Source of the DNA: Squalus acanthias
Lineage: Eukaryota
Length of the DNA stretch: 64,000 nucleotides
NCBI GenBank assembly: GCA_030390025.1
Contig: CM059432.1
Coordinates: forward strand, 33,048,001 to 33,112,000
Direction: 5' to 3'
In this document: positions 11,254 through 54,960 of the stretch, piece after piece
How positions within the stretch are numbered: the stretch's first letter is position 1
Layout: each line of letters begins with the position of its first letter
Position numbers and translations under genes: made by a program
The notes under the pieces: generated by a model
The model's input: the letters and a program-made list of their open reading frames with translations, nothing else
What the model was told of the DNA's origin: nothing
Database searches by the model: none

Positions 11254-11256
<3 letters not shown>

Positions 11257-11294
<38 letters not shown>
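11257..11294. repeat. (CT)n microsatellite upstream of the family A transposase (also at about 37109-37183 and 44365-44407)
   Basis: Visible dinucleotide run at the homologous position in all three family A copies, with variable length. Confidence 0.95.
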
Positions 11295-11297
<3 letters not shown>

Positions 11298-32997: not shown

Positions 32998-33621
32998 TGA
33001 TAGTGTCGCCTTGTACCTCCCCCTCCCCCAGCAAGGCAAAGAAAGGAACGCACATTTTAAAGTGAAACAGTGAACTTTTATTGCAGCATCAAAGACTTTT
33101 GAGGCTCAGTTTTGAAGTTCTTGGTTTTTAAGTTTTAAATGTTAACTACCTATTTTCTACTTTGCAAACATTCGCAAAGATAATTTTTTTGAATAAAATT
33201 TACAAACAGTTTAAAGTGACTTTTTTCATTTCTTGGTGCAATAAAGACATTCAAGATGGAAACTAGGGGGTAGAAATTAGGTCGCGCCCCATTTGGGGCG
33301 CAAATATCGTCCGAGCGCAAATATTAGCGCCTGGCGCTAATTATCGGCACTGACAGGAAACTTCACTTTTACCGCCCCGGGAGGTGAGTGGAGCGCTAAA
33401 GCAGGCGCTGCACACCTCTCTTGGCGCAAAGGCCTAGGAGTGAGGCGCTACCTCAGCGCGCGAGCGCAGCGCAGCTGCTGCCAGTTAGCGAGGGAACACA
33501 GACACACTGGCGCCGGACACTTCTTAAAGCGGGGGGGGCCACTTGCTCCCCAGCCACACCCTGCTCATTGCAGCCTTGAATCTCAGCCTGGAGAGACCTG
33601 TAATCCATTTTGCTGCCAAGC

Positions 33622-35552
33622 ATGGAGAGGGTGAGAGAACGCGCTCATCGCTTCACCGAGCGGGCCTTGGATGCTCTGGTTGACGCAGTGGAGCGCAGAC
33701 GATGCATGCTGTTCCCGGAGAGTGGCAGGAGGCCTTTGCCACGCGAGTTCAGAAGAGTGTGGAGGGAGGTGGCTCAGAGCGTCTCCTCCAGGAGCATGGT
33801 GCCCAGGACCCATGTTCAGTGCCGCAAAAAATTCAACGACCTCACTCGGGTCGTCAGGGTGAGTGGCTTTTTCTCAATACCTCTCCATCCCTCCATCTCA
33901 ACCTCACTCTATGGCCAGAGGGTCTTACAACCCCAATGCACAACACTCATGCAACACCTATGGCCCTTTCATCAAACACACACACACATTCCACACTTTG
34001 CATACAGTAAGGGCTATTCACCTATGGGAGGCACATCAGGCAAGACCATGGCTGCATATTGTAAGGGCTATTCACCTATGGGAGGCACATCAGGCAAGAC
34101 CATGGCTGCATATTGTAAGGGCTATTCACCTATGGGAGGCACATCAGGCAAGACCATGGCTGCATATTGTAAGGGCTATTCACCTATGGGAGGCACATCA
34201 GGCAAGACCATGGCTGTATATTTACTCAGATGCTGTCCTTTTTCTTGTAGGCTAAGCTGGCTCATAATCGGAGACAGCAGCAACGGACGGGTGCAGGGCG
34301 GCTTCAGCTGCAACCCCTCAGCGATCTGGAGGAGCGCGTCCACAGGATTGTGGCAAGCCGGGTGATCGGTCCCGTCGCCACTGGGGACGCCGACCCCGTT
34401 CTGGACAGCAATGGTAAGGTCATCACCTTTTTGTCCTCTGTCCTTCCACTTGTCCCTCACAATACCAGCCTTTGACACTTTCAATCCAACTTGCTAACTC
34501 GCTGCACTTATTCCTCCCTTACTGCCACCCTGTCCTCACGCTAAAGCCACTCTTGTACCTCCCTGCTTTCAGATGGTGATTCACCAGCTGAGGAGACGGG
34601 CCCTGAAGCTGCCACTGGGAGTGATGCTGCAGCTGAGGAGGAAGAGGAAGCCAGAGCATCAGTGCCACCCTCTCCCGAGGAAGCCCATGGCCACACTGGG
34701 AACATGCCTTCCCCGGAGGGGAGCAGGGGGGAAGGGGCTGATGATGGTGAAGCTCCAGGACCCAGCGGGCTGCAGCAACACCATGGGGGGGGGAGGGAAG
34801 AACGGGAGCCTTCTCCCCAGAGGGAGAGTATGCCAGACACTCCTACTGCAATGGACGCAGAGGAGGAGCGGCTGATTGCAGAAATGAACAGCCAGGCGGT
34901 GGGCATGCACACTGAGCTCATGGGTGCAGTGGGAAGGGTGCCCGAATGCATTGAGGCACTGGCAAGGAGTGTGGAGCACTTCGCTGTAGCACAGGCGGAT
35001 GCCACACTAAAGCTTAGTGCTGCAATTCAGTCACTGGCTGCCAGGAACCCATCTGAGACTGCTCTCATGCAGACTCAGATTGAGGCCACGCGAGCACTGA
35101 CTGCTGCCATCCTCGATGGTTCGTGCACATGTCCCCGGGGCTGTCACCGCGCCGCAGCAGGCCAGCAATCTGTTCTCCAGCAAATTGCTCCGGATGCTGA
35201 AGTGCTGCCCCGTGGGAGTGCCAGTGTGTCGGGCGAGCAGGGAGTTGCTGTCCTCTCTCACGATGACAGCATTCCTGCTGCCAACACTGTCACTTCTCCA
35301 CTGCACTTGCCACCGCCTGTAGGACAGACTGCTGCCGCCCATGCAGAGTTGGTGCAGTCTGCAGCCGGGCCCTCCAGGCCCAGAACTGGTCGAGGCCGTC
35401 CTTCAGGGGCATCTGCAGTGTCAGGGTCTGACGAGCAGCAGCCTTCCACCAGCCTTGCTGCAGCCACTGAGGTCCCATTACGGAGGAGCAGTAGGGTTAG
35501 AAGGGGGGAAGTGCACAAGGGAAGGAGATCACCCTCGAAGGGCAAAAAGTAG
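33622..35552 (+). CDS. Intact three-exon Myb/SANT-like Harbinger protein (459 aa): exons 33622-33858, 34251-34413, 34573-35552
   Basis: GT-AG introns with compatible phases (0 and 1) give one open frame of 1380 nt; Myb/trihelix RFTERALDALV..W.EVA..QCRKKFNDL, then RTGAG motif, acidic, coiled-coil and basic tail. Confidence 0.85.
34007..34220. repeat. 54-bp tandem repeat x4 in Myb intron 1 (x2 in copies 1 and 3)
   Basis: Unit GTAAGGGCTATTCACCTATGGGAGGCACATCAGGCAAGACCATGGCTGCATATT at 34007, 34061, 34115 and 34169. Confidence 0.95.
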
Positions 35553-35846
35553 GAGGTGTGCCAAAATGCTGGTCATTTTTTTATTAAAGGCCGAGGTTCA
35601 TGGCCCAACTTTTGTTTAGTGTTTTGGACATTATCTCCAGGTTGTGAGAACCAGTTATGTTATTGACTGTTTTTTTGTGTTTATTTCTATGAGTTTGTCA
35701 GGAGGAATTGACACACACAGAGTTTGTAAAATAAATAAGTTTCTGTATTCAAAATATACATGGCTGGTGGTTGGAATTATTGGTGCCTTGGCCGGCTTAG
35801 GGGTTGCGTGCTGGGTTGATTCGTGTTTGTAGCAATGGCAGGGGCC

Positions 35847-37005
35847 CTAGAAGCGGCTTGCTATTAGTCGTTGACGGACGGCCCTTGCAGTTTGACCATT
35901 GTGGGCCGCCCTCCTGCATTGGTGCTGCTGATGATCATCGTCCTCGTCCTGTTCCTCCTCTTCCTCCTCCTCCTCTGGTGGTGCTACAAGGCCTGGTGGC
36001 ATTGGCTGGGTCCTGAGGATTGCCATGTTGTGCAACATGCAGCACACGACTACGAACTTCGAAACTTGCTCAGGCGAGTACTGCAGGGCTCCTCCGGAAT
36101 GGTCCAGACAGCGGAACCGTTGTTTCAGCACGCCGATTGTGCGCTCAATAATGTTCCTGGTTGCTTGATGGCTTTCCTGGTACCGCAGCTCAGCAGGGGT
36201 GTTTGGCGCACGGAGCGGTGTCATCAGCCAGGTGCTCAATGCGTACCCCTTGTCCCCCAGAAGCCAACCAACTGGCTGATGCGGTGCCTCAAAGTTCTGC
36301 CACAGTAGTCTGGCGCAGGATGAAAGCATCGTGGCAGCTGCCCGGATAGTGGGCATTGACAGCGAGAATCACCTGTCTGTGGTCACAGACCAACTGCACA
36401 TTCAAGGAATGGAACCCCTTTCTGTTCCTGAACTCCTCTGCATTCTCTCGCAGAGCACGCAAAGCCACATGCATGCAGTCAATGGCGCCCTGCACCATGG
36501 GGAAGCCCGCTACCCTCGCAAAGCCCATAGCACGGTCATGCTGCTTGTCTGGGGTCATAGGGAAAGAGATGAAGTCTCGTCTCCTTCTGAAGAGGGCATT
36601 GGTGACCTGCCGGATGCAGCGATGCACTGCAAACTGGGAGATATTGGCGAGGTCCCCAACAGCAGCTTGGAATGAGCCAGTGGCGTAGAAGTTCAAAGCC
36701 ACTGTGACCTTCACTGCCACCGACAGAGACGTCCTGGACCTCAGCTGAGGCTGCAGATCTGGCTGCAGCAGGTGGCAGAGCTCAGTGACCACCTCCTTGC
36801 TGAATCGCAGCCTTCGCAAACACAGCTCCTCGGACATATGGATGTAGGAGAGCTGTTCACGATATACCCTGGGAGGGTAAGCTCTCCTGTACATGCGCCT
36901 GATGGCCCTCCTCCGTCTGGCCATCATTGCCACTCTCTGTCTGCGTCTCACTATCCTCCGATTCAGCTGGAGCAGGACGACGCCCCCAATCATTGCAGCC
37001 CCCAT
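35847..37005 (-). pseudogene. HARBI1-like transposase, family A copy 2, single frameshift at about 36290
   Basis: ORF 36289..37005 (N-terminal half to TVAEL*) continues in ORF 35847..36356 ([26 protein letters not shown]). Confidence 0.9.
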
Positions 37006-37106
37006 ATTCTCTTTGCCAGAAAAGTAATGAGGTACAGCAACTAAAGTTGCAACAAAGTTAGGATGAACTAGGCCAAACTACCTCACAAAGCGTTGAGTCA
37101 ATGTAG

Positions 37107-37163
<57 letters not shown>

Positions 37164-37817
37164 AATCTCTCTCTCTCTCTCTCAGAACGAGTGGTGCATA
37201 AATGTCGACCACAGAAAAAGACAGGAAGAGGCCCCCTTTAAATAGCGCCCCCCCCAGCCCCACAGCGATTGATAACGTTCCAGTCTTCCGGTCGTTGGAA
37301 GCGCCAGGCGGTAAGGCAGGGGGCGCCACTCAATTTCCGCTCCGGGGCGCCCCAAGGGCGTTGCACCATGGAATGACGTCACAATCTGCGCGCGCAGGTG
37401 GTCGCAGCGGTAAGTTTTAGCGTCGCCGCACAATCTCAAGTTAAGTTCTCGAGCGGCGCAAACATCGCTGCGCCCGGGCGTTAGCGGCTTAACGCCCCAT
37501 TAGCGCCCTCTTAAGGCGCTAACGGGAGGCGCAACCAACTGAATTTTTACCCCTAGCTATTTTCTAATTTTCAAACCGTTGTAACGTTGAATTTTTTTGC
37601 AAATAAAGTTGAATTTTTTTTCAAAAAGTGACTCGAGGCTGTACTTTTTAAACGAAACGGTTGCATACACTTTCAGTCACAAATATATATTTCAATAAAA
37701 AAAGCAACGACAACATTTAACATTTAAATAAAATGAAACATTAAAGAATTGAACGATTTGCCCCCTCGCATCTGTGCCTGAGGGTCAAAGGCGGTGGATT
37801 GTGCAAATGGTGACATC

Positions 37818-38520: not shown

Positions 38521-38655
38521 CTGTCCATGTGTGGGAAGGAAACAGTAAACATTTACAAAGGTGAAGCATGACCTGCCACATCACAGAAGCTGATATTCAG
38601 CACACACCCAACAGTTCTAAACATATAGCTGGCCAGACCAACTAACCTTTCCTTA

Positions 38656-40299
38656 TATAAGGGATTCGGACGGTGGCTCTGTGCTTAGCCTGGGTGCTAG
38701 TGCGGGGTTAGGCCTTGTCGCCTGTTCTGGTCTCCAGCCAGCCTGGTAACACTAGACACCTGTGAGTGGTTCGACCCACTCGCCCTTACGGTTCTGACAC
38801 TGGACTTAGGTGCGAGAGCAATAATGCAGAGAAAACTCAGGTAGACCCGGTTGAATAGTATGAAATGGAAAATCTTTATTGCATATTGTTCAAGATTACG
38901 AAATACATGTCATAAGCACAGATTAAATGACAGTACAAGCTTACATACATTTATGAAACTAGGTTTAGGGAAACGAGGAGTGCACGACACATCGTAAAAG
39001 GGGACACACATTATAATTATCCTTAAAACAAAAACCCTCCCCTAACAATACCTGTCCTAATCTAGATCTGTAGGATCGAGAATCATGCTCACCACTCGTG
39101 ATAACTCGGAGAATTCTAAAACGATGCTCGGATGTTTTCGCCACAACACCTGACTATTCACATGTTGATCAGGGGTCTCTGTACCCCACTTGTTTACTCG
39201 CTTCTGCTCCGGCTAGCAGGCTGGACCGTCTGCTGTCATGAAGATCTGTGTTGGTCTCGGATTTCTGATACTACTCAAAAAAAAAAAAAAAAAAAGTCTT
39301 CCTGTGCCCTACACCGGTTGTCGGTAGAACTCGAAGAAAAGTCTTCTGGTGCCAGTTGTGGAGTAGCCGATAGAATTCAAAGAAGTGGTTAATCGATTTT
39401 TCGGGCGCGGTCGGGGTTTACTGACCGCGGCGGCACATGTAGTCGTCTTCTTCTATTCTCATCTCATCTCATCTCATCTCCTCTCGGGCCTTCGGTTCCA
39501 ACACCGTTTACCGACTTCTCGGGATGGTGCGCCCGCTTGCAGGCCTTCGCAGACCAGCTCTCCACAGATCTTCGCGGCAAGCCACGAGGTTGACTCCCGA
39601 AAAATCAGCGGATCAGAGAATAAGAGTCAAGAGCTCGAGTCGGTGGTCGGTAAAGAATAAGAGAAAGATGGACGTTTGGACACTACAGTTATAGTACTGT
39701 AACCCCTTATCTCCCGCCCAATCTTAAGGGTCATGTTTTGGCGCTCAAACTTCTTGTATGGGGTGGTACTTGTCGTAAATGGGTTTCGGTGATACTTGTA
39801 ACTGTCTGAGTACCCGTTAACATTTCTCCCATTGTGGAACCGGCTAGGAGTCTCCCTGGAGGGGTTTTGGGGGCCTCCGAATTCTTGCTGTGAATACCCG
39901 CGAACGGCTCTCTCATCGTATAGCCACGGGGAATTTGCGTATCCATGTCTTTGGATGGGCCCTTGATTGCCCAGTACAATAGCCCTTGTCTGTGCATGGA
40001 AAAACCGATTCCAGCACTTATATTTCTTGCTTAGGTGTTAAAAAATGCAAAACGATCGCGTCTTGTCTTATATCAATATGCTGAGTGCTGTCCGATCTTG
40101 CTGAAATGTTTATTGAAACACCATCTTGTCTGCCCACTGAAAATCTAGAACCTTCTGCCACGAGGCGCGGCGGCCATTTTACAGGCTTCTTGTGTCCGTT
40201 TTTGAACCTGACAGCATTTTGCTGAAATAAAGCTGTTTATACGAAACTGTATGTCTCTATCTCGTTATTACGAAATCGCGATAATTTGCGAATTCTACA
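38656..40299 (-). repeat. 3' LTR (terminal CA mutated to TA)
   Basis: Direct repeat of 50349-51995; plus strand begins TATAAGGG instead of TGTAAGGG; minus-strand AATAAA at 38875-38880. Confidence 0.95.
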
Positions 40300-40312
40300 G
40301 TCCCTCCTGTTG
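40300..40312 (-). other. Polypurine tract
   Basis: Minus strand CAACAGGAGGGAC directly abuts TGTAGAATTC of the 3' LTR. Confidence 0.7.
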
Positions 40313-40642: not shown

Positions 40643-43600
40643 GGGGTAGAAATTAGGTCGCGCCCCATTTGGGGCGCAAATATCGTCTGGACGCAAATAT
40701 TAGCGCCTAGCGCTAATTATCGGCACTGACTGGAAACTTCACTTTTACCGCCCCGGGAGGTGAGTGGAGCGCTAAAGCAGGCGCTGCACACCTGTCTTAA
40801 GGCGCAAAGGCCAAGGAGTGAGGCGCTAACTCAGCGCGCGAGCGCAGCGCAGCTGCTGCCAGTTAGCGAGGGAACACAGACACACTGGCGCCGGCCACTT
40901 CTTAAAGCGGGGGGGGGGGGGGGGGCAACTTGCTCCCCAGCCACACCCTGCTCATTGCAGCCTTGAATCTCGGCCTGGAGAGACCTGTGAATCCATTTTG
41001 CTGCCAAGCATGGAGAGGGTGAGAGAACGCGCTCATCGCTTCACCGAGCGGGCCTTGGATGCTCTGGTTGGCGCGGTGGAGCGCAGACGATGTATGCTCT
41101 TCCCTGAGAGTGGCAGGAGGCCTTTGCCACGCGAGTTCAGAAGAGTGTGGAGGGAGGTGGCTCAGAGCGTCTCCTCCAGGAGCATGGTGCCCAGGACCCA
41201 TACTCAATGCCGCAAAAAGTTCAACGACCTCACTCGGGTCGTCAGGGTGAGTGGCTTTTTCTCAATACCTCTCCATCCCTCCATCTCAACCTCACTCTAT
41301 GGCCAGAGGGTCTTAAAACCCCAATGCACAACACTCATCCAACACCTATGGCCCTTTCATCAAACACACACACACATTCCACACTTTGCATACAGTAAGG
41401 GCTATTCACCTATGGGAGGCACATCAGGCAAGACCATGGCTGCATACAGTAAGGGCTATTCACCTATGGGAGGCACATCAGGCAAGACCATGGCTGTATA
41501 TTTACTCAGATGCTGTCCTTTTTCTTGCAGGCCAAGCTGGCACATAATAGGAGACAGCAGCAACGGACAGGTGGAGGGCGGCCTCAGCTGCAACCCCTCA
41601 GCGATCTTGAGCGCGTCCACAGGATTGTGGGAAGCCGGGTGATCGGTCCCGTCGCCACTGGAGACGCCGACCCCGTTCTGGACAGCAATGGTAAGGTCAT
41701 CACCTTTTTGTCCTCTGTCCTTCCACTTGTCCCTCACGACACCAGCCTTTGACACTTTCAATCCAACTTGCTAACTCGCTGCACTTATTCCTCCCTTACT
41801 GCCACCCTGTCCTCACGCTAAAGCCACTCTTGTACCTCCCTGCTTTCAGATGGTGATTCACCAGCTGAGGAGACGGGCCCTGAAGCTGCCGTTGGGAGTG
41901 ATGCTGCAGCTGAGGAGGAAGAGGAAGCCGGAGCATCAGTGCCACCCTCTCCCGAGGAAGCCCATGCCCACACTGGGAACACGCCTTCCCTGGAGGGTAG
42001 CAGGGGGGAAGGGTCTGATGAGGGTGAAGCTCCAGGACCCAGCGGGCTGCAGCAACGCCATGGGGGCGGTAGGGAAGAACGGGGGCCTTCTCCCCAGAGG
42101 GAGAGTATGCCAGACACTCCTACTGCAATGGACGCAGAGGAGGAGCGGCTGATCGCAGAAATGAACACCCAGGTGGTGGGCATGCACACTGAGCTCATGG
42201 GTGCAGTGGGAAGGGTGCCCGAATGCATTGAGTCACTGGCAAGGAGTGTGGTGCACTTCGCTGTAGCACAGGCGGATGCCACACTAACGCTTAGTGCTGC
42301 AATTCAGTCACTGGCTGCCATGATCCCATCTCTGACTGCTCTCATACAGACTCAGATTGAGGTCACGCGAGCACAGACTGCTGCCAACCTCGATGGTTCA
42401 TGCACATGTCCCCGGGGCTGTCACCGCGCCGCAGCAGGCCAGCAATCTGTTCTCCGGCAGATTGCTCCGGATGCTGAAGTGCTGCCCCGTGGGAGTGCCA
42501 GTGTGTCGGGCGAGCAGGGAGTTGCTGTCCTCTCTCATGATGACAGCATTCCTGCTGCCAACACTGTCACTTCTCCACTGCACTTGCCACCGCCTGTAGG
42601 ACAGACTGCTGCCGCCCATGCAGAGTTGGTGCAGTCTGCAGCCGGGCCCTCCAGGCCCAGAACTGGTCGAGGCCGTCCTTCAGGGGCATCTGCAGTGTCA
42701 GGGTCTGACGAGCAGCAGCCTTCCACCAGCCTTGCTGCAGCCACTGAGGTCCCATTACGGAGGAGCAGTAGGGTTAGAAGGGGGGAAGTGCGCAAGGGAA
42801 GGAGATCACCCTCGAAGGGCAAAAAGTAGGAGGTGTGACAAAATGCTGGTCATTTTTTTATTAAAGGTCGAGGTTCATGGTCCAACTTTTGTTTAGTGTT
42901 TTGGACATTATCTCCAGGTTGTGAGAACCAGTTATGTTATTGACTTTTTTTGTGTTTATTTCTATGAGTTTGTCATGAGGAATTGACACACACAGAGTTT
43001 GTAAAATAAATAAGTTTCTGTATTCAAAATATACATGGTTGGTGGTTGGAATTATTGGTGCCTTGACCGGCTTAGGGGTTGCGTGCTGGGTTCATTAATG
43101 TTGTTAGAAGCGGCTTGCTATTAGCCGTTGACGGACGGCCCTTGCAGTTTGACCATTGTGGGCCGCCCTCCTGCCTTGGTGCTGCTGATGATCATCGTCC
43201 TCGTCCTCTTCCTCCTCTTCCTCCTCCTCCTCTGGTGGTGCTCCAAGGCCTGGTGGCATTGGCTGGGTCCTGAGGATTGCCATGTTATGCAACATGCAGC
43301 ACACGACTACGAAGTTCGATACTCGCTCAGGCGAGTACTGCAGGGCTCCTCCGGAATGGTCCAGACAGCGGAACCGTTGCTTCAGCACGCCGATTGTGCG
43401 CTCAATAATGTTCCTGGTAGCTTGATGGCTCTCATTGTACCACAGCTCAGCAGGGGTGTTGGGCGTACGGAGCGGTGTCATCAGCCAGGTGCTCAATGCA
43501 TACCCCTTGTCCCCGAGAAGCCAACCAACTGGCTGATGCGGTGCCTCAAAGTTCTGCCACAGTAGTCTGGCACAGGATAAAAGCATCGTGGCAGTTGCCA

Positions 43601-44772
43601 GGATACTGGGCATTGACAGCGAGTATCAGCTGTCTGTGGTCACAGACCAACTGGACATTCAAGGAATGGAACCCCTTTCTGTTCCTGAATTCCTCGGCAT
43701 TCTCACACGGAGCACGCAAAGCCACATGCGTGCAGTCAATGGCGCCCTGCACCATGGGGAAGCCCGCTACCCTCGCAAAGCCCAGAGCATGGTCACGCTG
43801 CTTGTCTGGGGTCATGGGGAAAGAGATGAACTCTCGTCTCCTTCTGAAGAGGGCATTTGTGACCAACGGATGCAGCAATGCACCGCGAACTGGGAGATAT
43901 TGGCGAGGTCCCCAGCAGCAGCTTGAAATGAGCCAGTAGCGTAAAAGTTCAAAGCCACTGTGACCTTCACTGCCACCGACAGAGACGTCCTGGACCTCAG
44001 TTGAGGCTGCAGATCTGGCTGCAGCAGGTGGCAGAGCTCAGTGACCACCTCCTTGCTGAATCGCAGCCTTCGCAAACACAGCTCCTCGGACATATGGATG
44101 TAGGAGAGCTGTTCACGATATACCCTGGGAGGGTAAGCTCTCCTGTACATACGCCTGATGGCCCTCCTCCGTCTGGCCATCATTGCCACTCTCTCTCTGC
44201 GTCTCTGTATCCTCCGATTCAGCTGGAGCAGGACGACGCCCCCAATCAGTGCAGCCCCCATATTCTCTTTGCAAGCAAGGTAATGAAGGACAGCAACTAA
44301 AGTAGCAGCAAAGTTAGGATCAATAGGCAAAACTACCTCACAAAGCGTTGAGTCAATGTAGAAGTCTCTCTTTCTCTCTCTCCGAATCTCTCTCTCTCTC
44401 TCTCTCAGAACGAGTGGTGCAAAAATGTCGACCACAGAAAAAGACAGGAAGAGGCCCCCTTTAAATAGCGCCCCAGCCCCACAGCGATTGATAGCGTTCC
44501 AGTCTTCCGGTCGTTGGAAGCGCCAGGCGGTAAGGCAGGAGGCGCCACTCAATTTCCGCTCCGGGGCGCCACAAGGGCGTTGCACCATGGAATGACGTCA
44601 TAATCTGCGCGCGCAGGTGGTCGCAGCGGTAAGTTTTAGCGCCGCCGCACAATGTCAAGTTAAGTTCCCGAGCGGCGCAAACATCGCTGCGCCCGGGCGT
44701 TAGCGGCTTTGCGCCCCATTAGCGCCCTCTTAAGGCACTAACGGGAGGCGCAACCAACTGAATTTTTACCCC
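40643..44772. mobile_element. Harbinger family A copy 3, inserted between env and the PPT of the provirus
   Basis: TIRs GGGGTAGAAATT / AATTTTTACCCC; TSD ACA at 40640-40642 and 44773-44775; Myb gene (+) about 41010-42829; transposase (-) about 43104-44262 with two frameshifts. Confidence 0.94.
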
Positions 44773-44874: not shown

Positions 44875-47226
44875 TTACGCAGCGCTTTCTTCGTGCACGC
44901 GCACGTAACGCTCTCGCCACTCTCCTGTGTTTTCGTGCTTGGTAAGGCGTTTGCCTCTCTTACAGTGCACGACCAATAAGTATATCACAATTATCACCTG
45001 GCATGCAACTAAAATGTGGGAGGTTATTCTAATCCAGGAAGGCACTTCGATGTTGGTGAACAGATCCCACCACGGTGGGATTACTATGTCTAAAATCTCT
45101 GACCCTATCTCGACAGTTTTCTGCTCAAGGGTATAAAAATGCTTCTGCGAAACCTCAACGGCTTTCAAAAGTTTGGAGAGGTGTTCAGGGAGAGGGGGAA
45201 TGAGGTATCCGAAATGCGCGACGAATCGCTGCAAGTCGGTGAAGTTCTCCTTTACTGTTAGATGAACAGTGGATGGTTCAGGGATCGGGACAATTCGCTG
45301 CTGTGCCACTTGAACTTCAGCCCTGGGTTTAAAACAGAAACTGCTGTCACTCACCGGACACCGGCTACGGTTTCCATGCTGGTAGTGTTGCGCTGCAGTG
45401 GTAACACAATATGTTCCACCCCCTATGTATGCTACCTGCGGAGGCACATGATCTTGTGCCATTGCCTCCATGGTGCAATTCATGGGCTTGGCGCCAGCCG
45501 TTCTGAACCCGCACTGTGGCGATAAAAAGGCATTCAAGTGCTGGGGACACAGGATTATGTGTGCTCCCCTGCCACGACAACCAGAGAGATCTGTACCTGT
45601 CATCGTTTGCTCCCAGCGGATGACGTAAGGTGGGACCGCTGCATAGCGAATGTGGGCTCCCCCCTGAATGACACCAATGTTCTCTACCCGATACACCGGG
45701 GCGGGCTTTGCTGTGTCGCCGAAAACCGGCATACGCAACACTATACCCATAATGGTATGGTTTGACCGTCCGCAGTCCACGGGGACTGGGTATGCTTCTG
45801 AAGCTAGCCTGAGCTGGCACGGGCTTAATGCTTTCTGAAAAGGGTGGAGCGCCTGCAGGTGTTTGTTACTTATCCAGGACGGGACGAAACCTTGTTTTAA
45901 ATCCTCCAAATTACTGCGGCCCTCGCCCAGTAACCACGCCCCGTAAAGCACGCACACCTCATTCTGCGCAGCCTGATTGGACGCATTCCGATCTTCCCTG
46001 ATCAGGGCATTTACTGTATGCGCATGTTTCTCTAGTTCAGCTATGATTTCTTTTAAATGGAGAGTCATGGCCTCGTCCTCATGTAACCCAGACCCTACCA
46101 CCTTATTTTTGTCTGTAAGGATATTCTTTAATTGGGTTTTTAAACCATTAATCTGGGTCTGCAACTCCACGTTATCTAGAGTGTTGACCACAGATGTCCC
46201 TGTATTGAACGCAGTGAACATGTCGTTCACAACACCCCTTCTTTGTCTCCCCACCTGGCCCAAAACTTCATGTGGTGCGGTGTACAAACTTGTTTTATCA
46301 ATCTCCGCAAAATCGAATTCATAAAATTGTCTAAACATATTGGTCAACAGGACCTGATATAACTGTTCCGTCTCTTTGGGGCACCACTTTGGCAACTGCA
46401 CCTCGGTGAGGTTTAAAATCACCGAGGCCACCTCGTAATGTACCCCCTGAAATAGTATCTGGTCTGTAGGGACCAGTGCCAAACCATTCCCGGGTCCCTT
46501 ACTGGTTTTAGGGCACCCTTCTTCCTTAGCCAGAACCACCGGAATCGTGGGCGGGGCCTTGTGTGGGCGCATAATGAGTTCAGTGGCGTTTACCGGGATC
46601 GGAGAGTATGGGGCTCCGCACCCCCTGGTGCTAGCATCCCACCTCATCCCTTTCCCATAATCCTGCCACTGATTCACGAAAAATATGGAGATGCCTTTGG
46701 GGCAAACGTGCTTTGACCCCCACATACATACATAAATTCCCTCATCCAGTTCCCACCATTTGTCCCAACAGACTTTCAATTGTCCGTTAGTCCACGTAAT
46801 TGTCCGATGGGTATTATTTCCCAATCGCTCCCACTCGACCAAAGAATTCCTCATATTCCTGCTCGGCTTTCGTAGCCACCACCATCGGCTCAATGGGATA
46901 TTCCCATTACAAGTCAAACAAATCCGTTTGCCGACGGTGACGCTGACTCTGGGTGCGATGATCCTCACTTTGGGGCACATTAAAGAAGTCTCCTTGTAGG
47001 CAAAACCCGTTGTGCTGGAGTATTCAGTTGAGTTTGTTCCCAGCCATCCTGGCCACCTTCCCTTGTGGAACTAAGTGGCGGTCTCCTCAGCCTCTCGCCT
47101 CCCGGTCCCATCCACCGCGATGGGGGCCGTGTACCCGGAGCATCCAAACACCACGACATCCTTGGTGCGGCCTCGATAGGCCAGTCCACATCCGATTGCC
47201 GCGAGCACTACCAGAATCTGTTCCAT
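44875..47226 (-). CDS. env: Envelope glycoprotein: signal peptide, Ig-like domain, class I fusion protein; 783 codons with one in-frame TAG at 47071-47073
   Basis: ATG at 47226 in strong context (AGGATGG), MEQILVVLAAIGCGLA signal-like peptide in frame with the 701-aa ORF 44875..46980; furin site RQRR (46237-46248); heptad repeats; Cys-rich ectodomain; W-rich MPER; TM ILVACQVIIVIYLLVVHC; basic tail with YVRV. Confidence 0.88.
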
Positions 47227-47499: not shown

Positions 47500-48515
47500 T
47501 CAAATTCTGTGAAGGCGGCCACAAGCTTTTTCCAACGGTGGGAGGGCGCTGGCCCCTCCCTTTGATCTGCCGCAGCCTGTTGCTGCTGCGCTGGGACTGG
47601 GATCTCCCTGGGCTGCTTTAGCCTTGGACCTACGCCTGGGGACATACGGGGGACTTGACCATACCTTCCTGGGCTGGGGTGTCCGACTTGACCTACGGGG
47701 AGCTACCGGGGGCAAGAACTCCAGGGCCGACGGACCGGGTTTCGAGACTTCCACCGTTGCGACCTGTGGTCCCACCACAGCCGCTGGCTCCGCCTCCCTG
47801 AACTCGGGATCTGCAGTCTCTGGCACCGCCCTACTTGGCCCTGTAGGCGGCCCTTCACTCGCAGTCCCTACCTCCCGCGAGGGCAAGACTTCCAAGGCGG
47901 ACGGACTGGGCTCTGAGGCTTCCCTCGCCACGTCCTGTGGTCCCACCACAGCCGCTGGCTCCGCCTCCCCTAGCTCCGCCTCCCTGAGTTCGGGACCTGC
48001 AGCTTCTGCTTCCACCCTGTGTGGACCTCCATCTGCAGTCCCTATCTTCCTTTTACTTGAATCGGGGGCGACCCTTTCATCCTCCGATTCCAGCTCCTCT
48101 TCGCTCGGGTCACTATCTTGGTCGAGCTCCTCGAACTCTTCCTCATCTGACTCCCAACCCCAATAAAGGATCCTACATTTTGCTAGGATGTCCTCTCCCC
48201 TGATGCAAGCTGCTTTGCCAGCCTGCGTGCCCTGCGGTCCTACCCGGGGCTGCGAGTCCCCACTCGCAGGTTTGGCCCCTGGTTGGCCCTTGTGCACCCG
48301 GCTTATACAGCTTGCACTGGTTAAAATCCCTGCTTCTGGCTACCCTGTAGGCTGCTTTTATCTCTCTAAGCTGCCCTTCTAGCCCATCTATTTTCCCCAT
48401 TAAGCGGGCGTTCTCCTCCCGTAAGGCCTGCTCTTTTAACCTGGCCTCCTTACAGGAGACCCCCTCCTGTGCGTGTCTTTTTAAAAGGACACAGGTAGGC
48501 AGGCTGCGTGGGCTC
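47500..48515 (-). other. Region replacing pol: diverged Gag coiled-coil paralogue plus acidic/Pro-rich ORF (47500..48297)
   Basis: EARLKEQALREENARLMGKIDGLEGQLREIKAAYRVA aligns with Gag EAKLNEGRIRERCARLAAQIKAQEESLKGVRAAYKMA; 265-aa ORF with a duplicated EAEPAAVVGPQ..PSALE.LP unit; no PR, RT, RNase H or IN motifs. Confidence 0.6.
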
Positions 48516-48518
48516 TAG

Positions 48519-50344
48519 TCATTGGGTACTGGCGGACGGGGCTGCGGCATCTGCGGGGCCGGTAGCGACTGCCACCCTTCCTTGCGAAATCATGAGGGTC
48601 CGCATGGCTCCCAACATTGATTCTATCACATCGGGATGGATAGGCACACCAGCTCCCATTTCAGAGACAGGCGCCTGGGCTCGGGCTGCGGGATTTTTAT
48701 CCCTGGACTCCTTCCAGGGGTTCCTGCAGTTCTTGCGCCAGTGCCCTGTCTTTCCGCACCCGTAACAAGCACTACTGGCTTGTGGGCGCGATTTCCCTCC
48801 TGATGCCACTCCTTTTGAGCCGGGGCTGCGGGCCGTGCCTCATGCACCTTTCCCTCAAGGGGACGTGCCCCCGTACTCCTAGTATTACGGTACCCTACCG
48901 TGAGTTGGTTTAAGACCGACTCCTCAGTTGTGATGGGGTTAGTGGGATCAAACCATGCTTTGGCCTGCTCCCTGACGGTTGGCAAGCTGTTGGCTACTAC
49001 ACATCTGAGCCAGTGAGCTAAACCGACACCGTCTAAATCGACGCGCTCGGGCGCGCCTGGGCAGCTACGCTGATAGACAGGCCACAGCCTGTCGGCGAAA
49101 ACCTTCGGGGGTTCTCCCTCCATCTGCTTTGTCTGTCCCAATCTAACGAACGGACCTTCATCGTCCACCCCCAACACCTCTAGGACCTCATCCCTTAATT
49201 GCTCATAGGTCCTATTTCCCCTTTTGCTCGCGTCTGAGAGACACTGGAGGATCGAGCTGTCTAAAGAGAACAGCAGCATTTTTGCCCTTTCCCCATCGTC
49301 GCAGCCGTTAATGGCTGCGGTCTGCTCTACCTCCCTGAAATGTACGGAAGGGTCGTCTGATTCGGACAGCTTCCGTACGTGACTGATCATAGCCCTCAGC
49401 TGGTGTGCGTTGTGCGGCAACACAAGCTGGCTGAGGAGATCCCCAGCTGCCCCATTGGCTCCCACCGGGCCCCTTTTCTGGCCCGTGACCAGACACAACG
49501 GTCCCGGCTTCACTGCTACCTCAGGGGGCTGTACTACCTCGGGGACCTCTTCCTCCACTTCTACCACTTCCTCCTTTACCCAGGTTCCCGAATAGCTGGG
49601 TGGCGCGGAGGGCACAGTGGCAAATACCTCCTCTGCTTTGTTCGGTAGGGATTTTTGGAATTCCCCACCCACCGGTGGCTGGTGTGCTGACGGGCTGATA
49701 AGGCACGCCATGCCGTGCGCTTTATTGAGGGCCTCTTTAAGGTTCCCTATCTCTCTCTGGCAGACGCTGTGGTCGGCCCCCTCATGTTTATCCTCGAGGG
49801 CCATCTTATATGCCGCCCTAACTCCCTTTAAGCTCTCTTCCTGGGCTTTTATTTGAGCAGCTAGGCGGGCACATCGTTCCCTAATTCTGCCCTCATTTAA
49901 TTTTGCCTCAGTGACCTGGCACTCGAGGTAATCTATTTTCGCCTCATGGTGGTTGGCGACTAACTGGCGTTCCTGATGCAACGCATTTAAAGACGCGATG
50001 AGCTGCTGCCCCCCCCCCGCGACCTTTTCATCCATCTCCACCTCTAAACCCTTGATCTGAGCTGCCTGTGCTACGATGACCTGGTCCGAAATCTGGACTT
50101 GCCTTTTATAACACATCAGCCAAACCGCTTTCTCTACCGATCTTTTATGATCTTTGCTGCCTGTCCACCTGCTGGCTGTGTCTAGCGGACGCTTATCCAC
50201 CAGCAGGTCACTTATCCATCTCTTAGTCAAATTAACTTTCCCAAAAACATAATCGGCTATTCTCTCTTCCATAACATTTCGCCCATTCATACCAGGGTCA
50301 AACACATTATTTTCTCGCTGCCAGTGTCCTGCCGCGGTCGCCAT
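48519..50344 (-). CDS. gag: Gag (572-aa ORF; CCHC nucleocapsid knuckle in the -1 frame, ending at 48519)
   Basis: Coiled coil, PSAPPSY late domain, capsid-like region with MHR-like QMEGEPPKVFADRL; CYGCGKTGHWRKNC in ORF 48519..48809. Confidence 0.88.
50326..50343 (-). other. Primer-binding site, tRNA-Ser-like
   Basis: TGGCGACCGCGGCAGGAC begins 5 nt inside the 5' LTR end and resembles the complement of vertebrate tRNA-Ser 3' ends (TGGCGTAGTCGGCAGGA, TGGCGACGAGG). The tRNA identity is inferred. Confidence 0.7.
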
Positions 50345-50348
50345 TTTC

Positions 50349-51995
50349 TGTAAGGGATTCGGACGGTGGCTCTGTGCTTAGCCTGGGTGCTAGTGCGGGG
50401 TTAGGCCTTGTCGCCTGTTCTGGTCTCCAGCCAGCCTGGTAACACTAGACACCTGTGAGTGGTTCGACCCACTCGCCCTTACGGTTCTGACACTGGACTT
50501 AGGTGCGAGAGCAATAATGCAGAGAAAACTCAGGTAGACCCGGTTGAATAGTACGAAATGGAAAATCTTTATTGCATATTGTTCAAGATTACGAAATACA
50601 TGTCATAAGCACAGATTAAATGACAGTACAAGCTTACATACATTTATGAAACTAGGTTTAGGGAAACGAGGAGCGCACGACACATCGTAAAAGGGGACAC
50701 ACATTATAATTATCCTTAAAACAAAAACCCTCCCCTATCAATACCTGTCCTAATCTAGATCTGTAGGATCGAGAATCATGCTCACCACTCGTGATAACTC
50801 GGAGAATTCTAAAACGATGCTCGGATGTTTTCGCCACAACACCTGACTATTCACGTGTTGATCAGGGGTCTCTGTACCCCATTTGTTTACTCGCTTCTGC
50901 TCCGGCTAGCAGGCTGGACCGTCTGCTGTCATGAAGATCTGTGTTGGTCTCGGATTTCTGATACTACTCAAAAAAAAAAAAAGAGTCTTCCTGTGCCCTA
51001 CACTGGTTGTCGGTAGAACTCGAAGAAAAGTCTTCTGGTGCCAGTTGTGGAGTAGCCGATAGAATTCAAAGAAGTGGTTAATCGATTTTTCGGGCGCGGT
51101 CGGGGTTTACTGACCGCGGCGGCACATGTAGTCGTCTTCTTCTCTTCTCATCTCTTCTCATCTCATCTCCTCTCGGGCCTTCGGTTCCAACACCGTTTAC
51201 CGACTTCTCGGGATGGTGCGCCCGCTTGCAGGCCTTCGCAGACCAGCTCTCCACAGATCTTCGCGGCAAGCCACGAGGTTGACTCCCGGAAAATCAGCGG
51301 ATCAGAGAATAAGAGTCAAGAGCTCGAGTCGGTGGTCGGTAAAGAATAAGAGAAAGATGGACGTTTGGACACTACAGTTATAGTACTGTAATCCCTTATC
51401 TCCCGCCCAATCTTAAGGTTCATCTTTTGTCATGTTTTGGCGCTCAAACTTCTTGTATGGGGTGGTACTTGTCGTAAATGGGTTTCGGTGATACTTGTAA
51501 CTGTCTGAGTACCCGTTAACATTTCTCCCATTGTGGAACCGGCTAGGAGTCTCCCTGGAGGGGTTTTGGGAGCCTCCGAATTCTTGCTGTGAGTACCCGC
51601 GAACGGCTCTCTCATCGTAGAGCCTTGGGGAATTTGTGTATCAATGTCTTTGGATGGGCCCTTGATTGCCCAGTACAATAGCCCTCGTCTGTGCATGGAA
51701 AAACCGATTCCACCACTTATATTTCTTGCTTAGGTGTTAAAAAATGCAAAACGATCGCGTCTTGTCTTATATCAATATGCTGAGTGCTGTCTGATCTTGC
51801 TGAAATGTTTATTGAAACACCATCTTGTCTGCCCACTGAAAATCTAGAACCTTCTGCCACGAGGCGCGGCGGCCATTTTACAGGCTTCTTGTGTCCGTTT
51901 TTGAACCTGACAGCATTTTGCTGAAATAAAGCTGTTTATACGAAACTGTATGTCTCTATCTTATTACGAAATCGCGATAATTTGCGAATTCTACA
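50349..51995 (-). repeat. 5' LTR with putative promoter (CCAAT/GC box 51403-51411, TATAA 51378-51382)
   Basis: TG..CA termini; promoter motifs are conserved in all three LTR copies; AATAAA at 50568-50573. Confidence 0.93.
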
Positions 51996-52430
51996 CTTAT
52001 CCCAATGTCTGATTGGGCAGCAGGCACTGTACAGCCACTACTGATTACAAGCAGCTGCTCGACCCTTTCCTCATGCTCTGATAAATCCCTTAGCGTGACG
52101 ACACCACCACCTGTCAATGCACGCTCTCTGGCGTTGTTAACAATTTTACTCTAAAATGAAAAGAGAAAATATGAAACGTCATGAAACTGCAGTTTTTTCA
52201 GCAGAGACCACCCACCTGCCTTTGAGACAAGAACAGAAGCTGCTTTGGAGACAGGGTGTTTTTTCACTCACTAATTGAAATTTTACAACTCAAACCTGTA
52301 GAGTCAAGATAAGCGCACAATAGATGACCCTGAGCTGGCCCCAAAGCCATAAAATGTTATGACAAGCTCACATGCCTGGATAATGAAGTCACTTTGCAAC
52401 ACCCATGCATCCAAGAGCTTTTTAAAAATA

Positions 52431-54960
52431 GTTCAGTTTCCGATTGGACTACTTCACTTTCCATCTTAATGAAGAATTCTATCATGTTATGGTCACTCTT
52501 CCCTAAAGGACCCCGCACAACAAGATTATTAATTAACCCCTTCTCATTGCACAATACCCAATCTAGGATAGCCTGTTCCCTGGTTGGCTCTTCAACGTAC
52601 TGGTCTAAAAAACCATCTCGTACACACCCCAGGAATTCATCCTCCACAGTATTATTGCTAATTTGGTTTGGCCAGTCTATATGTAGATTAAAGACACCCA
52701 TGATTACTGTAGTACCCTTGTTACATGCATCTCTAATTTCTTGTTTGATGCCATCCCCTACATTACCATTACTGTTTGGAGGCCTATAGACAACTCCCAC
52801 CAATGTTTTCTGCCCCTTGGTGCTTCTTAGCTCCACCCAGACTGATTCTACATCTTGATTTTCCAAGCCAATATCCTTTCTCACTATTGCTCTGATTTCA
52901 TCCTTTACTAACAATGCCACCCCACCTCCTTGTCCTTTTTGCCTGTCCTTCCTAAATATCGAATATCCTTGGATATTCAGCTCCCAGCCTTGGTCACCCT
53001 GTAGCCATGTCTCCGTAATTGCAATTATATCGTATCCATTTACATCTATTTGCGCTGTTAATTCGTCTACCTTATTATGAATGCATCGTGCCTTTAGATT
53101 TGTCTCTAACATTTTTTGTACTATGGCCCTATTTGCCTTATTACCATTTTTTTCTTACCTGGACTCTATTTGTTAGTGCACTCTTGTTTGTCAGGAAGGG
53201 ACATAGCGTACAATCTGGTTATCGTTACCCCAATCACCTTTCCTGCACTGCTTCCTTGTCTTTTCTCTTTAGCATTCGGATTTCTCTCCACTGGGACCGC
53301 CCCCCCCCCTTATTTAGTTTAAAGCTCTATCTACCTCCCTAGTTATTTGATTTGCTCGAACTCTGGTCCCAGCATGGTTCAAGTGTAATCCGTCCCAGTG
53401 GAACAGCTCCTCTTTCGCCAGTACCCCGACGAATCGAAACCCACTTCTCCCACACCAATCTTTGAGCTACGCATCTCCCTGATCCTATTGATGCTCTGCC
53501 AATTTGCTCGTTGCTCAGGTAATAATCGAGATTATTACCTTTGTGGTTCTGCTTTTTACTTTAGTCCCTAGCTGCTCATACTCTCTCAGCAGAACCTTTT
53601 TCTTAGTCCTACCTATGCCGTTGGTACCTACGTGGACTACGACAACTGGATCCTCCCCCTCCCACTCCAAGTTCTTCTCCAGCCCGAGGAGATGTCCTTT
53701 ACCCTGGCACCGGGTAGGCAATATAGCCTTCGGGACTCATCCTCCTGGCTGCAGAGAACACTGTCTTTCTCCCCCCCTAACTACTGCCGCCTACTACAAC
53801 CACCTTCCTTTTTACTTCCCCCCACTTGAACGGCTTCCTGTACCACGGTGCCATGGTCAGTTTGCTCATCGTCCCCGCACTTGTCCACAAGGGTTGCGAG
53901 AACCTCTACTCTATTGGACAAGTGCAGGGACTGAGGCTCCTGCAATACTACCTCTTGGATCCCTGTACCTGTCTCACTCGCAGTCACACCCTCCTGACCA
54001 CGTGTCAATTCTGAAGTATTTAATCTAAGGGGTGTGGCTGCCTCCTGGAGCAAAAGGTCCAGGTAACTTTCTCCCTCCCTGATGCCTTGCAATGTCTGCA
54101 GCTCGGACTCCAGCTCCTCAACTCTGAGCCGAAGTTCCTCGAGCCGCAAACACTTACTGCAGATGTAGTCGCCCTGGACAAAAATTTCTACAAGCTCCCA
54201 CATGTGCAGCAGCAACACATCTCCTGTTCTCCCATTATTTTATTTATTTAATTAATTAGTTTAGTGTTAATCAAATTATTTACCTCGTTTAGTTTATTAA
54301 ATTAATTAAATTAAGTTTAATTTTTAAAATTTAGTTATATGCTATATGTTAACTTATAGCCCACAGTTACTACCACAGTCACTACCAATCACTTGCCTTC
54401 CTTACCTGTGACATCACACTGCAGTTTTCTCTTGTTGTTGCAGGTCTGCTGCTGCTTTTATCCCCGCTCTCGGGCCTCGGTCTGCTCCTGCTCAGGTCTG
54501 CCGCTGCTCCGCGGGAGAAGTTAGGAAAAGCAAGGCAAAGCAGCACCTCCTTCCCCCACTTCACCGAACTCCCACACTTATTAAACTCCCAAATTGTTCA
54601 CTCTGTGCCCGCTGCACTAGTGCCGGTTGCACTCACAGGCCCCTGTATTTATACTGTTTGTAACTCAGGTGAGTCTGCTATGCTCTGCTATTGTTTCAGT
54701 AACCAGTTTAATCTAGCTCGCTAATTAACGAACTACAGCAGCTCTCCAGTAGGAGAGCTTGCTTGTTTGTCTCTGCTTAAGCCTGAAAGAAACTTAAAAA
54801 TGTAAAGTTTAAAATTTAACTTAAACAGTTGATCTTACCCAAGAGCTACTAGCAATTAACACTAGATTTTAAGAGATTAACTCTTAAAACTCCCACACTT
54901 ACCAAACTCTCAAGTTGTTCACTCTATGCCTGCTGCACTCTTCTTTCTTGTTCCCTGGCG
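52431..54960 (-). mobile_element. CR1 LINE 5' portion (5' UTR, ORF1, APE), 3'-truncated
   Basis: ORF1 fragments 53515-54218 (CSKCLRLEELRLRV, VHVGTNG); APE 52431-53112 (ITETWLQ, VYRPP, SDHNMIEF). Confidence 0.88.

What the first reader, a model, noticed from the sequence alone, without database searches (positions are those of the whole stretch)
44875..46500. Fusion module resembles paramyxo/pneumovirus F or errantivirus Env, not gamma-type TM
Seen: the post-cleavage subunit (after RQRR|GVVNDMFTAF) is about 453 aa, with HR1, a long Cys-rich beta region, HR2, a W-rich MPER and a TM helix. It lacks the immunosuppressive domain and CX6CC motif of gamma-type Env. The pre-cleavage F2-like part is short. 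Known: this layout is that of Mononegavirales F and baculovirus F/errantivirus Env. The family assignment is inference.
Basis: partly seen in the sequence, partly recalled or inferred. Interest (0 to 1): 0.7.

Follow-up and report, generated by a model that had tools for sequence, protein, structure and literature searches.

The report
F-type envelope of shark-group provirus
A dead, enzyme-less endogenous retrovirus in what is probably a shark or ray genome carries an envelope protein built like the fusion protein of measles- and RSV-type viruses and of foamy viruses, with a probable antibody-like domain added at its front, a layout I did not find described in the papers searched.

Summary
Observation largely confirmed. 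The post-cleavage subunit is 453 aa, with HR1, a Cys-rich beta region, HR2, Trp-containing MPER and TM, and no CX6CC or ISD. An AlphaFold model matches paramyxo/pneumovirus F (Foldseek E 4e-12; VIA Z 13.2) and also baculovirus F, epsilonretrovirus Env and foamy Env. It is a class Ib F-like fusogen, not gamma-type. Two corrections. First, the pre-cleavage part is 330 codons: a 93-aa F2-like piece behind a probable Ig V-like domain. The gene lies in a pol-less LTR provirus (LTRs 1.3% diverged, 4-bp TSD), has one in-frame stop, and belongs to a multi-copy family with relatives in sharks, skates and frogs. Without pol the lineage is unresolved; a shark-frog foamy-like clade fits better than lokiretroviruses. 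F-type retroviral Env is known, so this is a new variant. This scan noted the same Env on other copies in this genome.

The parts
50349..51995 (-). 5' LTR (about 1.65 kb, TG...CA)
   Evidence: 97.7% identical to the 3' LTR, 21 mismatches and 3 gaps over 1652 columns
38656..40299 (-). 3' LTR (terminal CA mutated)
   Evidence: K2P distance to the 5' LTR 0.013
51996..51999 (.). 4-bp target-site duplication, copy beside the 5' LTR
   Evidence: same 4 bases as 38652-38655
38652..38655 (.). 4-bp target-site duplication, copy beside the 3' LTR
50326..50343 (-). PBS-like 18-mer starting TGG, 5 nt after the LTR and overlapping the gag ATG; tRNA not identified
   Evidence: PBS role is inference
48519..50344 (-). 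gag: N-terminal coiled coil, Ty3/foamy-type capsid, CCHC knuckle; one frameshift near 48850
   Evidence: 60% identical to skate protein P0043, which has Pfam zf-CCHC; Atlas leads (0.85) to Retrotrans_gag, Ty3_capsid and Gag_spuma
47500..48514 (-). ORF X fragments in the place of pol: Gag-like coiled coil, then an acidic and Pro/Ala-rich repeat; no PR, RT, RH or IN hit
   Evidence: 43% identity over 37 aa to the Gag coiled coil, pairwise E 5e-6
47074..47226 (-). env start: ATG, putative signal peptide and linker
   Evidence: colinear with skate proteins P0001 and P0049; signal peptide judged by eye
47071..47073 (-). in-frame stop that breaks env in this copy
46708..46974 (-). probable Ig V/I-set-like domain (Cys 46911, Trp 46878, DxGxYxC 46746)
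   Evidence: Pfam Ig_3 E 0.34; light chains E 0.2-0.85; CD8a E 0.02; low-confidence model whose listed fold matches are almost all Ig-type, best Foldseek E 0.004, VIA Z 6.5
46516..46707 (-). linker and Pro/Thr-rich stalk
   Evidence: sequence; unmodelled
46237..46515 (-). F2-like part: conserved Cys-Pro, first long beta strand, HRC helix, furin site RQRR (46248-46237)
   Evidence: alignments to F start at model residue 191-193 = F residues 23-38; pLDDT block means 76-91
46186..46236 (-). putative fusion peptide (polar, amphipathic)
   Evidence: position after the furin site; low pLDDT; role inferred
45895..46185 (-). HR1/HRA and central helix, with a conserved Cys at 45954
   Evidence: helices 281-322 and 331-392; Cys kept in 18 of 20
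45271..45894 (-). beta-rich domains III, I and II, Cys-rich
45079..45195 (-). HR2/HRB
   Evidence: helix 627-660; heptad score 0.82
45028..45078 (-). MPER with 3 Trp
44968..45027 (-). transmembrane helix
   Evidence: hydropathy
44875..44967 (-). 30-aa cytoplasmic tail and stop
40643..44772 (.). Harbinger-type DNA transposon inserted in the provirus 3' UTR (terminal inverted repeats, 3-bp TSD, DDE_Tnp_4 and Myb/SANT ORFs)
40300..40308 (-). short polypurine tract before the 3' LTR

Best explanation
The ORF is the env gene of an integrated, non-autonomous (gag, ORF X, env, no pol) LTR provirus of a cartilaginous fish. Its product is a class Ib, F-like viral fusogen. Shown by sequence or model: furin site, short F2-like piece contributing the first beta strand and HRC helix, HR1, domains I-III, HR2, MPER and TM. 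Inferred from established F biology: it trimerises, is cut at RQRR, the halves stay disulfide-linked (conserved Cys at 46383 with 45954), and a trigger makes HR1 extend, insert the fusion peptide and fold back on HR2 into a six-helix bundle. There is no separate attachment gene and no foamy-type RBD insertion, so attachment most likely falls to the N-terminal Ig-like domain on its stalk (fold about 0.75, receptor-binding role about 0.45). This copy is dead: env has a stop after codon 51 and gag is frameshifted. The family must be mobilised by pol supplied in trans (inference). Lineage odds without pol: shark-frog foamy-like clade about 0.4, lokiretrovirus 0.2, undescribed lineage 0.2, Gypsy 0.1, epsilon-like 0.1.
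For: Foldseek PDB: 245 matches at E<=0.001, and all 38 listed rows are paramyxo/pneumovirus F, best hPIV3 F E 4.2e-12. VIA wide search of 48,161 chains: ranks 1-13 are all F or foamy Env (NDV F Z 12.3, rmsd 18.2, 340 aligned; foamy 8rm1 Z 8.6, rmsd 7.1, 265 aligned; 8rm0 Z 8.1, rmsd 5.7, 277 aligned). hPIV3 F reaches Z 13.2, rmsd 6.3, 323 aligned. BFVD: lispi/arlivirus G, baculovirus F, paramyxovirus F, walleye epsilonretrovirus Env (E 1.7e-9 and 4.6e-7), feline foamy Env (E 9e-5). ESM Atlas features: Gypsy/Baculo_F 0.95-0.96, Fusion_gly 0.93. The family profile hits foamy Env at E 0.003-0.017, with Cys in register. Proviral anatomy. All 15 distinct env relatives that carry a species name plus a further four from the same lists are chondrichthyans or frogs; none is named from another group. 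10,024 and 5,914 contigs from two DNA runs lie on the internal region at >=85% identity, spread over all identity bands, as expected of a multi-copy family.
Against: Mean pLDDT is 58 and pTM 0.45, and residues 1-183 are unmodelled. TM-scores are about 0.3 by query length, and rmsd is high for many rows because the long helices are placed differently. Atlas recognition (1846) is below the 2300 level, so its scores are weak evidence. No Pfam fusion family hits the window protein or any of the 31 aligned members among the 25 of 34 families shown. The Ig evidence is sub-threshold in every single test (no Foldseek E<=0.001, VIA Z<8, model pLDDT 40 overall and 50-59 in the sandwich). Its tests are not fully independent, and the relative P0029 gave no PDB hit. 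The fusion peptide is polar. Trimer formation, cleavage, fusion and expression were not tested. The host species is inferred from relatives only.
Confidence: 0.87

Rival explanations
1. Lineage: a lokiretrovirus (lokiortervirus), like non-autonomous zebrafish BHIKHARI, now in a cartilaginous fish, with an Ig module added to its Env.
For: Loki Env is F-like with an RXKR site (PMC7947760). By eye, loki Env shares the Gly-Pro..Gly-Leu F2 start and the Cys spacing of the beta region. Bik-1 Gag has an N-terminal coiled coil, and Bik-2 lacks pol and env.
Against: Wang and Han marked none of the six chondrichthyan genomes shown as loki-positive (Orectolobiformes 0 of 3), although three of those species carry this env family. 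The 12 loki Env N-termini seen (13 of 23 entries viewed) start F2 right after the signal peptide. No loki Env surfaced among the named hits of a full phmmer search (40 hits, 20 looked up). This Gag has a CCHC knuckle, whereas Bik-1 Gag is described with a Gly-rich patch.
Confidence: 0.2
2. Lineage: a vertebrate env-bearing Ty3/Gypsy element (errantivirus-like) that took its F from a baculovirus-type source.
For: Top Atlas rows are Gypsy/Baculo_F clusters. One relative, P0027, hits Baculo_F at E 0.0011, below the cutoff. Gag is Ty3-like with CCHC. Baculovirus F ranks 4th in BFVD.
Against: The errantivirus survey found no intact vertebrate elements homologous to invertebrate ones (10.1101/2023.10.26.564294, passage). 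The whale-shark gene model P0019 joins this env to a stand-alone RNase H (Pfam E 4e-5; weak MLV RNase H hits, E 0.5-0.9), which is more retrovirus-like.
Confidence: 0.1
3. Lineage: an epsilon-like retrovirus, because walleye retrovirus Env models also match this fold.
For: WEHV1 Env E 1.7e-9 and WDSV Env E 4.6e-7 in BFVD, better than foamy Env. Epsilon-like ERVs are known in elephant shark (PMC4422223).
Against: Gag leads are Ty3/foamy-type, not orthoretroviral. Gag lacks Gly2. This Env is about 780 aa against 1159-1317 aa.
Confidence: 0.1
4. The N-terminal module is not an attachment domain but an immune decoy, or not Ig at all, and the F core binds receptor by itself as pneumovirus F can (recalled).
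For: The module is exchangeable: P0012 and P0038 carry an unrelated Cys-rich N-terminus, and P0031 has none. The Ig scores are all weak.
Against: Ig-type F-strand motifs occur in front of F2 in members on both sides of the deepest split of the tree (window, P0011, P0018, P0029). Exchangeable N-terminal modules are what class Ib fusogens use for receptor binding (PMC11468914).
Confidence: 0.35
5. It is a diverged gamma-type Env.
For: It has a CXXC (CLTC) in the N-subunit and lies in an LTR provirus.
Against: No CX6CC or ISD, a post-cleavage ectodomain of about 400 aa, no gamma-type row among the listed structure or profile matches, and the first Cys of CLTC is poorly conserved.
Confidence: 0.01

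Closest known systems
Paramyxovirus and pneumovirus F (PF00523; PDB 1ztm, 3maw, 6apb)
   Same: Nested domains I-III, short F2, furin site then fusion peptide, HRA, HRB, TM; best structural scores
   Different: Encoded by an LTR provirus; 7-16% identity; no PF00523 hit; about 185 extra residues with an Ig-like module before F2; polar fusion peptide; no separate attachment gene
Foamy virus Env (PDB 8rm0, 8rm1, 8ozh; PMC11468914)
   Same: Class Ib core in a retroviral Env; best sequence-profile hit (E 0.003); Gag with an N-terminal coiled coil; long LTRs (foamy comparison recalled)
   Different: No RBD of about 330 aa between HRC and the furin site (about 20 residues here); no long membrane-anchored leader; Gag has a CCHC knuckle
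Lokiretrovirus Env and BHIKHARI (PMC7947760; 10.1101/2024.03.25.586437)
   Same: F-like Env in a vertebrate LTR element; similar F2 start and beta-region motifs by eye; pol-less family members
   Different: No N-terminal module in the 12 loki N-termini seen; more apolar fusion peptide; not reported in Chondrichthyes; RT not available here
Shark and frog foamy-like ERVs CmiFLERV and XtrFLERV (PMC5512871)
   Same: Same odd host pairing (sharks plus frogs); frog Envs group with a bamboo-shark Env at 100/99 in the unrooted tree; those authors could detect only pol for this clade
   Different: No direct link shown: their pol could not be compared with this element
Errantivirus Env and baculovirus F (PF07253, PF12259)
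   Same: Same fold clan; top Atlas rows; BFVD E 8e-13
   Different: Invertebrate Ty3/Gypsy or DNA-virus context; no Pfam hit for the window protein

Membership tests
Class Ib (F-like) fusion proteins | Domains I-III formed by both subunits | tested here: met
   Alignments span model residues 193-600 from the F2 strand on; Z 13.2, rmsd 6.3, 323 aligned
Class Ib (F-like) fusion proteins | Furin site, fusion peptide, HRA, HRB, TM | tested here: met
   fusion peptide by position only
Class Ib (F-like) fusion proteins | Trimer and membrane fusion activity | not tested
   No trimer model was run (the whole core times three exceeds the size limit); activity cannot be tested with these tools
Gamma-type Env | CX6CC in TM | tested here: not met
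   pattern absent
Gamma-type Env | Immunosuppressive domain | tested here: not met
   no match to a recalled ISD pattern; no TLV_coat hit
Gamma-type Env | Conserved CXXC in SU | tested here: not met
   CLTC present, but its first Cys is kept in 1 of 3 relatives and it lies in the Ig-like strand
Paramyxoviridae/Pneumoviridae F | Gene of a negative-strand RNA virus; PF00523 above cutoff | tested here: not met
   lies between gag and LTR with TSD; no PF00523 hit
Foamy virus Env | RBD inserted between HRC and the furin site | tested here: not met
   HRC ends at residue 253 and the furin site starts at 275
Foamy virus Env | Long leader peptide with its own TM segment | tested here: not met
   only one segment above hydropathy 1.4 from the ATG on
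Foamy-like ERVs (shark-frog clade) | RT/Pol groups with CmiFLERV and XtrFLERV | not testable with these tools
   no pol in this copy, no genome held, FLERV sequences not retrievable by name
Lokiretrovirus | RT in the loki clade; dual RNase H | not testable with these tools
   no pol; the P0019 RNase H motifs were mostly absent from the loki supplement (1 of 4 motifs found once), which is weak
Lokiretrovirus | F-like Env with RXKR-type site | tested here: met
   comparison with loki Env by eye only
Lokiretrovirus | Signal peptide directly followed by F2 | tested here: not met
   about 235 codons precede F2 here; none in the 12 loki N-termini seen
Errantivirus | Ty3/Gypsy-type pol | not testable with these tools
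   no pol in this copy
Errantivirus | Env matches PF07253 or PF12259 | tested here: inconclusive
   no hit for the window protein; P0027 E 0.0011 below cutoff; Atlas 0.95-0.96 with low recognition
Ig superfamily V/I-set | B-strand Cys, C-strand Trp, DxGxYxC | tested here: met
   positions 46911, 46878, 46746; Cys spacing 61
Ig superfamily V/I-set | Significant profile or confident structural match | tested here: inconclusive
   E 0.02-0.34 by sequence, Foldseek E 0.004, VIA Z 6.5, rmsd 3.1, 80 aligned
Troyka/Kuafuortervirus | CG...CG termini, 3-bp TSD | tested here: not met
   TG...CA termini and 4-bp TSD against PMC12440569

The most novel reading that the evidence does not exclude
This env family, with its gag, is the so far undetected structural half of the shark-frog foamy-like retrovirus clade (CmiFLERV/XtrFLERV). 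It is a basal retroviral lineage that kept a minimal F scaffold without the foamy RBD and instead gained exchangeable N-terminal attachment modules, one of them a host-type Ig V domain. It would be a third architecture for class Ib retroviral Env (bare in loki, internal RBD in foamy, N-terminal module here) and would support an F-like Env as ancestral for retroviruses.
Probability: 0.3. Interest if true: 0.75.

Novelty: new variant of a known kind. Interest (0 to 1): 0.55.

Why it matters
The origin of retroviral env is open. Wang and Han preferred independent acquisition by lokiretroviruses and canonical retroviruses (PMC9040795, passages), but foamy Env has since proved F-like. A further, abundant, young F-type Env lineage in cartilaginous fishes and frogs adds a sampled branch where none was reported. 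The BFVD matches to walleye epsilonretrovirus Env suggest the fold is wider in retroviruses still. It also shows a fusion scaffold with swappable N-terminal modules, which makes the modular model of class Ib fusogens testable. The F-like fold alone is not surprising after 2020-2024.

Tried and rejected
No genome is held for this window, so copy number, pol-bearing relatives and dN/dS could not be examined.

Pfam gave no fusion-family hit for the window protein. phmmer against PDB gave only antibody light chains at E 0.2-0.85. Locus searches found nothing: alignment A1 was too diverse to search with; viral contigs had 3 pattern matches, none confirmed; metagenome contigs had 403, none confirmed.

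The Niban hit is an artefact of the chimeric gene model P0003 in alignment A2. Chimeric models P0003, P0004, P0008, P0019 and P0027 were left out of A1, as were P0022 (replaced by the longer P0045), P0023, P0033, P0034, P0037 and P0039-P0042. The tree used the window plus 18 relatives and is unrooted.

No RNA holder is listed as such. X12 and X16 are only guessed to be RNA, so expression is not claimed. No listed joint or loose end revealed a pol junction, but 565 loose ends were not shown.

Two RT-bearing ORFs elsewhere in the window (77 ORFs scanned) are a LINE and a Penelope-like element, not the missing pol. Troyka/Kuafu was rejected on termini and TSD. No complex prediction was run.

Literature: ten searches gave no paper describing an Ig-bearing F-type Env in sharks or frogs. 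The library lacks most subscription papers. The 2023 J Virol paper on cartilaginous-fish endogenous foamy virus (PMC9972966) is not held (title seen only in a reference list) and may bear directly on novelty, as may Repbase entries. The loki supplement was cut at 300 of 318 pages, and bioRxiv supplements could not be seen.

Full report
Observation. The minus-strand frame is open from 47070 to the stop at 44875-44877. The furin motif RQRR is at 46248-46237, and the subunit after it is 453 aa. It has two N-terminal heptad helices, ten ectodomain Cys, a second heptad helix, three Trp before a single hydrophobic segment, and a 30-aa tail. CX6CC and an ISD-type pattern are absent. The claim that the pre-cleavage part is short holds only for the F2-equivalent (93 aa from the conserved Cys-Pro at 46515). 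The gene starts at the ATG at 47226, 330 codons before the cleavage site, and is broken by one in-frame stop at 47071-47073. Skate proteins P0001 and P0049 are colinear over this region at 70-74% identity, so leader and body belong to one gene.

Context. The gene lies in a provirus with LTRs at 50349-51995 and 38656-40299, TG...CA ends (the last CA mutated), a 4-bp target-site duplication, a PBS-like site overlapping the gag ATG and a short polypurine tract. The LTRs differ by 14 transitions and 7 transversions in 1635 columns (K2P 0.013). That is about 3 Myr at the mammalian rate or about 30 Myr at the tenfold lower shark rate assumed in PMC4422223 (part 1 of 2 read); both rates are borrowed. 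Gag is 60% identical to a skate protein with a CCHC knuckle, is frameshifted near 48850, and gives only lead-level Atlas scores (0.85) to Ty3-type and foamy Gag. There is no pol. Its place holds ORF X fragments, whose start resembles the Gag coiled coil. Earlier notes of this scan (e1-7807165, e1-8036056) say the rest is an integrase tail and that pol-bearing relatives exist; I did not verify either. A Harbinger transposon sits in the 3' UTR. Thousands of contigs from two DNA runs lie on the internal region across all identity bands, and all 30 bins are covered in 4 of 4 runs, which fits a large family. Contigs give neither copy number nor expression.

Relatives. phmmer of the post-cleavage subunit over 1.84 billion representatives gave 40 hits at E<=0.001. 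Of the 20 looked up, 17 carry species names: 15 chondrichthyan (Pristiophorus, Chiloscyllium, Mustelus, Heterodontus, Heptranchias, Scyliorhinus, Rhincodon) and 2 frog (Pelodytes, Xenopus); 3 are unnamed Logan proteins. The host is therefore probably a shark or ray. In an unrooted tree of 19 rows, the frog proteins and two unnamed ones group with a bamboo-shark protein (100/99), and the window groups with sawshark proteins (100/100).

Fold. The AlphaFold model from a 31-sequence alignment has block-mean pLDDT mostly 76-96 over the F2 strand, HRC, the second HR1 helix and the beta domains, and is unresolved for residues 1-183. Foldseek on PDB lists only paramyxo- and pneumovirus F, best E 4.2e-12. 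The exhaustive VIA search ranks F proteins and foamy Env at positions 1-13; the prefusion F rows and foamy Env are tied within about one Z unit. The higher scores of postfusion F (Z 11-13) probably reflect the extended HR1 of the model. BFVD adds lispivirus G, baculovirus F, walleye epsilonretrovirus Env and feline foamy Env. By sequence profile, the only Env-type PDB hits are foamy Env, E 0.003-0.017. So the protein works like F. It is not shown to belong to any one family of the clan.

N-terminal module. Residues at 46974-46708 carry the V/I-set signature (Cys, Trp, DxGxYxC). Every test points to Ig, but each is weak: Pfam Ig_3 E 0.34, light chains E 0.2, CD8a E 0.02, and a low-confidence model whose listed matches are nearly all Ig domains. 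Similar motifs precede F2 in P0011, P0018 and P0029 (V-set E 0.045). P0012 and P0038 have an unrelated module and P0031 has none. I put the Ig fold at about 0.75 and an attachment role at about 0.45.

Mechanism. Shown: architecture and fold. Inferred from established F biology: signal-peptide entry, trimer, furin cleavage, F2-F1 disulfides through the conserved Cys at 46515 and 46383, receptor or pH trigger, fusion-peptide insertion and six-helix-bundle collapse. This copy cannot make the protein, and the family needs pol in trans.

Comparison. Lokiretrovirus Env is F-like (PMC7947760; parts 1-3 of 4 and supplement searches read). The 12 N-termini seen have no module before F2, and the six chondrichthyan genomes listed were not marked positive, though three of those species carry this env. 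In PMC5512871 (passages) a frog foamy-like ERV clusters with shark ones and only pol could be detected for both, which mirrors the host pattern here. The link is untested. The errantivirus survey found no vertebrate homologues (10.1101/2023.10.26.564294, passages). Also consulted without finding this element: passages of 10.1101/2024.03.25.586437, PMC9040795, PMC12583693, PMC13709493, PMC11089739, PMC10699275 and PMC11521997, part 1 of 5 of PMC12440569, and parts 1-2 of 3 of PMC11673190. PMC9972966 could not be read. Statements on gamma-type motifs, foamy LTR length and Gag, and RSV-type disulfides are recalled.

Verdict. Real, F-like and not gamma-type. It is a new variant of the known F-type retroviral Env, notable for its host group and N-terminal module; the lineage is unresolved. 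The same Env was noted on other copies in this genome by earlier agents; I reached this reading before seeing those notes and do not count them as support. Interest 0.55.

Noticed in passing
window 2134-3756: A third, older LTR of the same family (82-83% identical, nearly full length), apparently solo; its TSD was not established.
   Followed up: partly
window 33267-37553, 7992-11664, 40643-44772: Three related Harbinger transposons (DDE_Tnp_4 plus Myb/SANT ORFs, 84-92% identical) with a 54-nt tandem repeat in the Myb ORF and a third long ORF of 335 aa without Pfam hit; a second, more distant Harbinger family occurs several times (e.g. 58751-59818, 28049-28609, 11908-12797).
   Followed up: partly
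window 25547-28099 (-): Decayed Penelope-like element: RT (Pfam E 1e-10) followed by a GIY-YIG-like C-terminus judged by eye.
   Followed up: partly
window 3723-6932 (-), 52360-54269, 62395-64000: LINE fragments with endonuclease, RT and a GDSL-esterase-type ORF1, CR1/L2-like by recall.
   Followed up: no
window 50326-50344: The gag start codon lies inside the PBS-like site, 5 nt after the 5' LTR, leaving almost no leader between U5 and gag.
   Followed up: no
window 39627-40037 (-): A 136-codon stop-free stretch inside the 3' LTR with no Pfam hit; the matching stretch of the 5' LTR is shorter (99 codons listed).
   Followed up: partly
(BFVD): Walleye epsilonretrovirus Env models (WEHV1, WDSV) and a fish filovirus glycoprotein match the F-like model well, suggesting that epsilon Env is class Ib; I did not find this stated in the passages read.
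   Followed up: no
proteins P0003, P0004, P0008, P0027: Public shark gene models splice pieces of this env onto host genes (Niban1, a zinc-finger protein, a cadherin-like protein, FBXO15): annotation artefacts or real exonisation.
   Followed up: no
proteins P0012, P0038: A subclade of this Env family carries a different Cys-rich N-terminal module (43% identical to each other, unrelated to the Ig-like one), fold unknown.
   Followed up: partly
window 18110-18466 (-): DDE_1 (Tc1/pogo-type) transposase fragment, Pfam E 6e-30.
   Followed up: no
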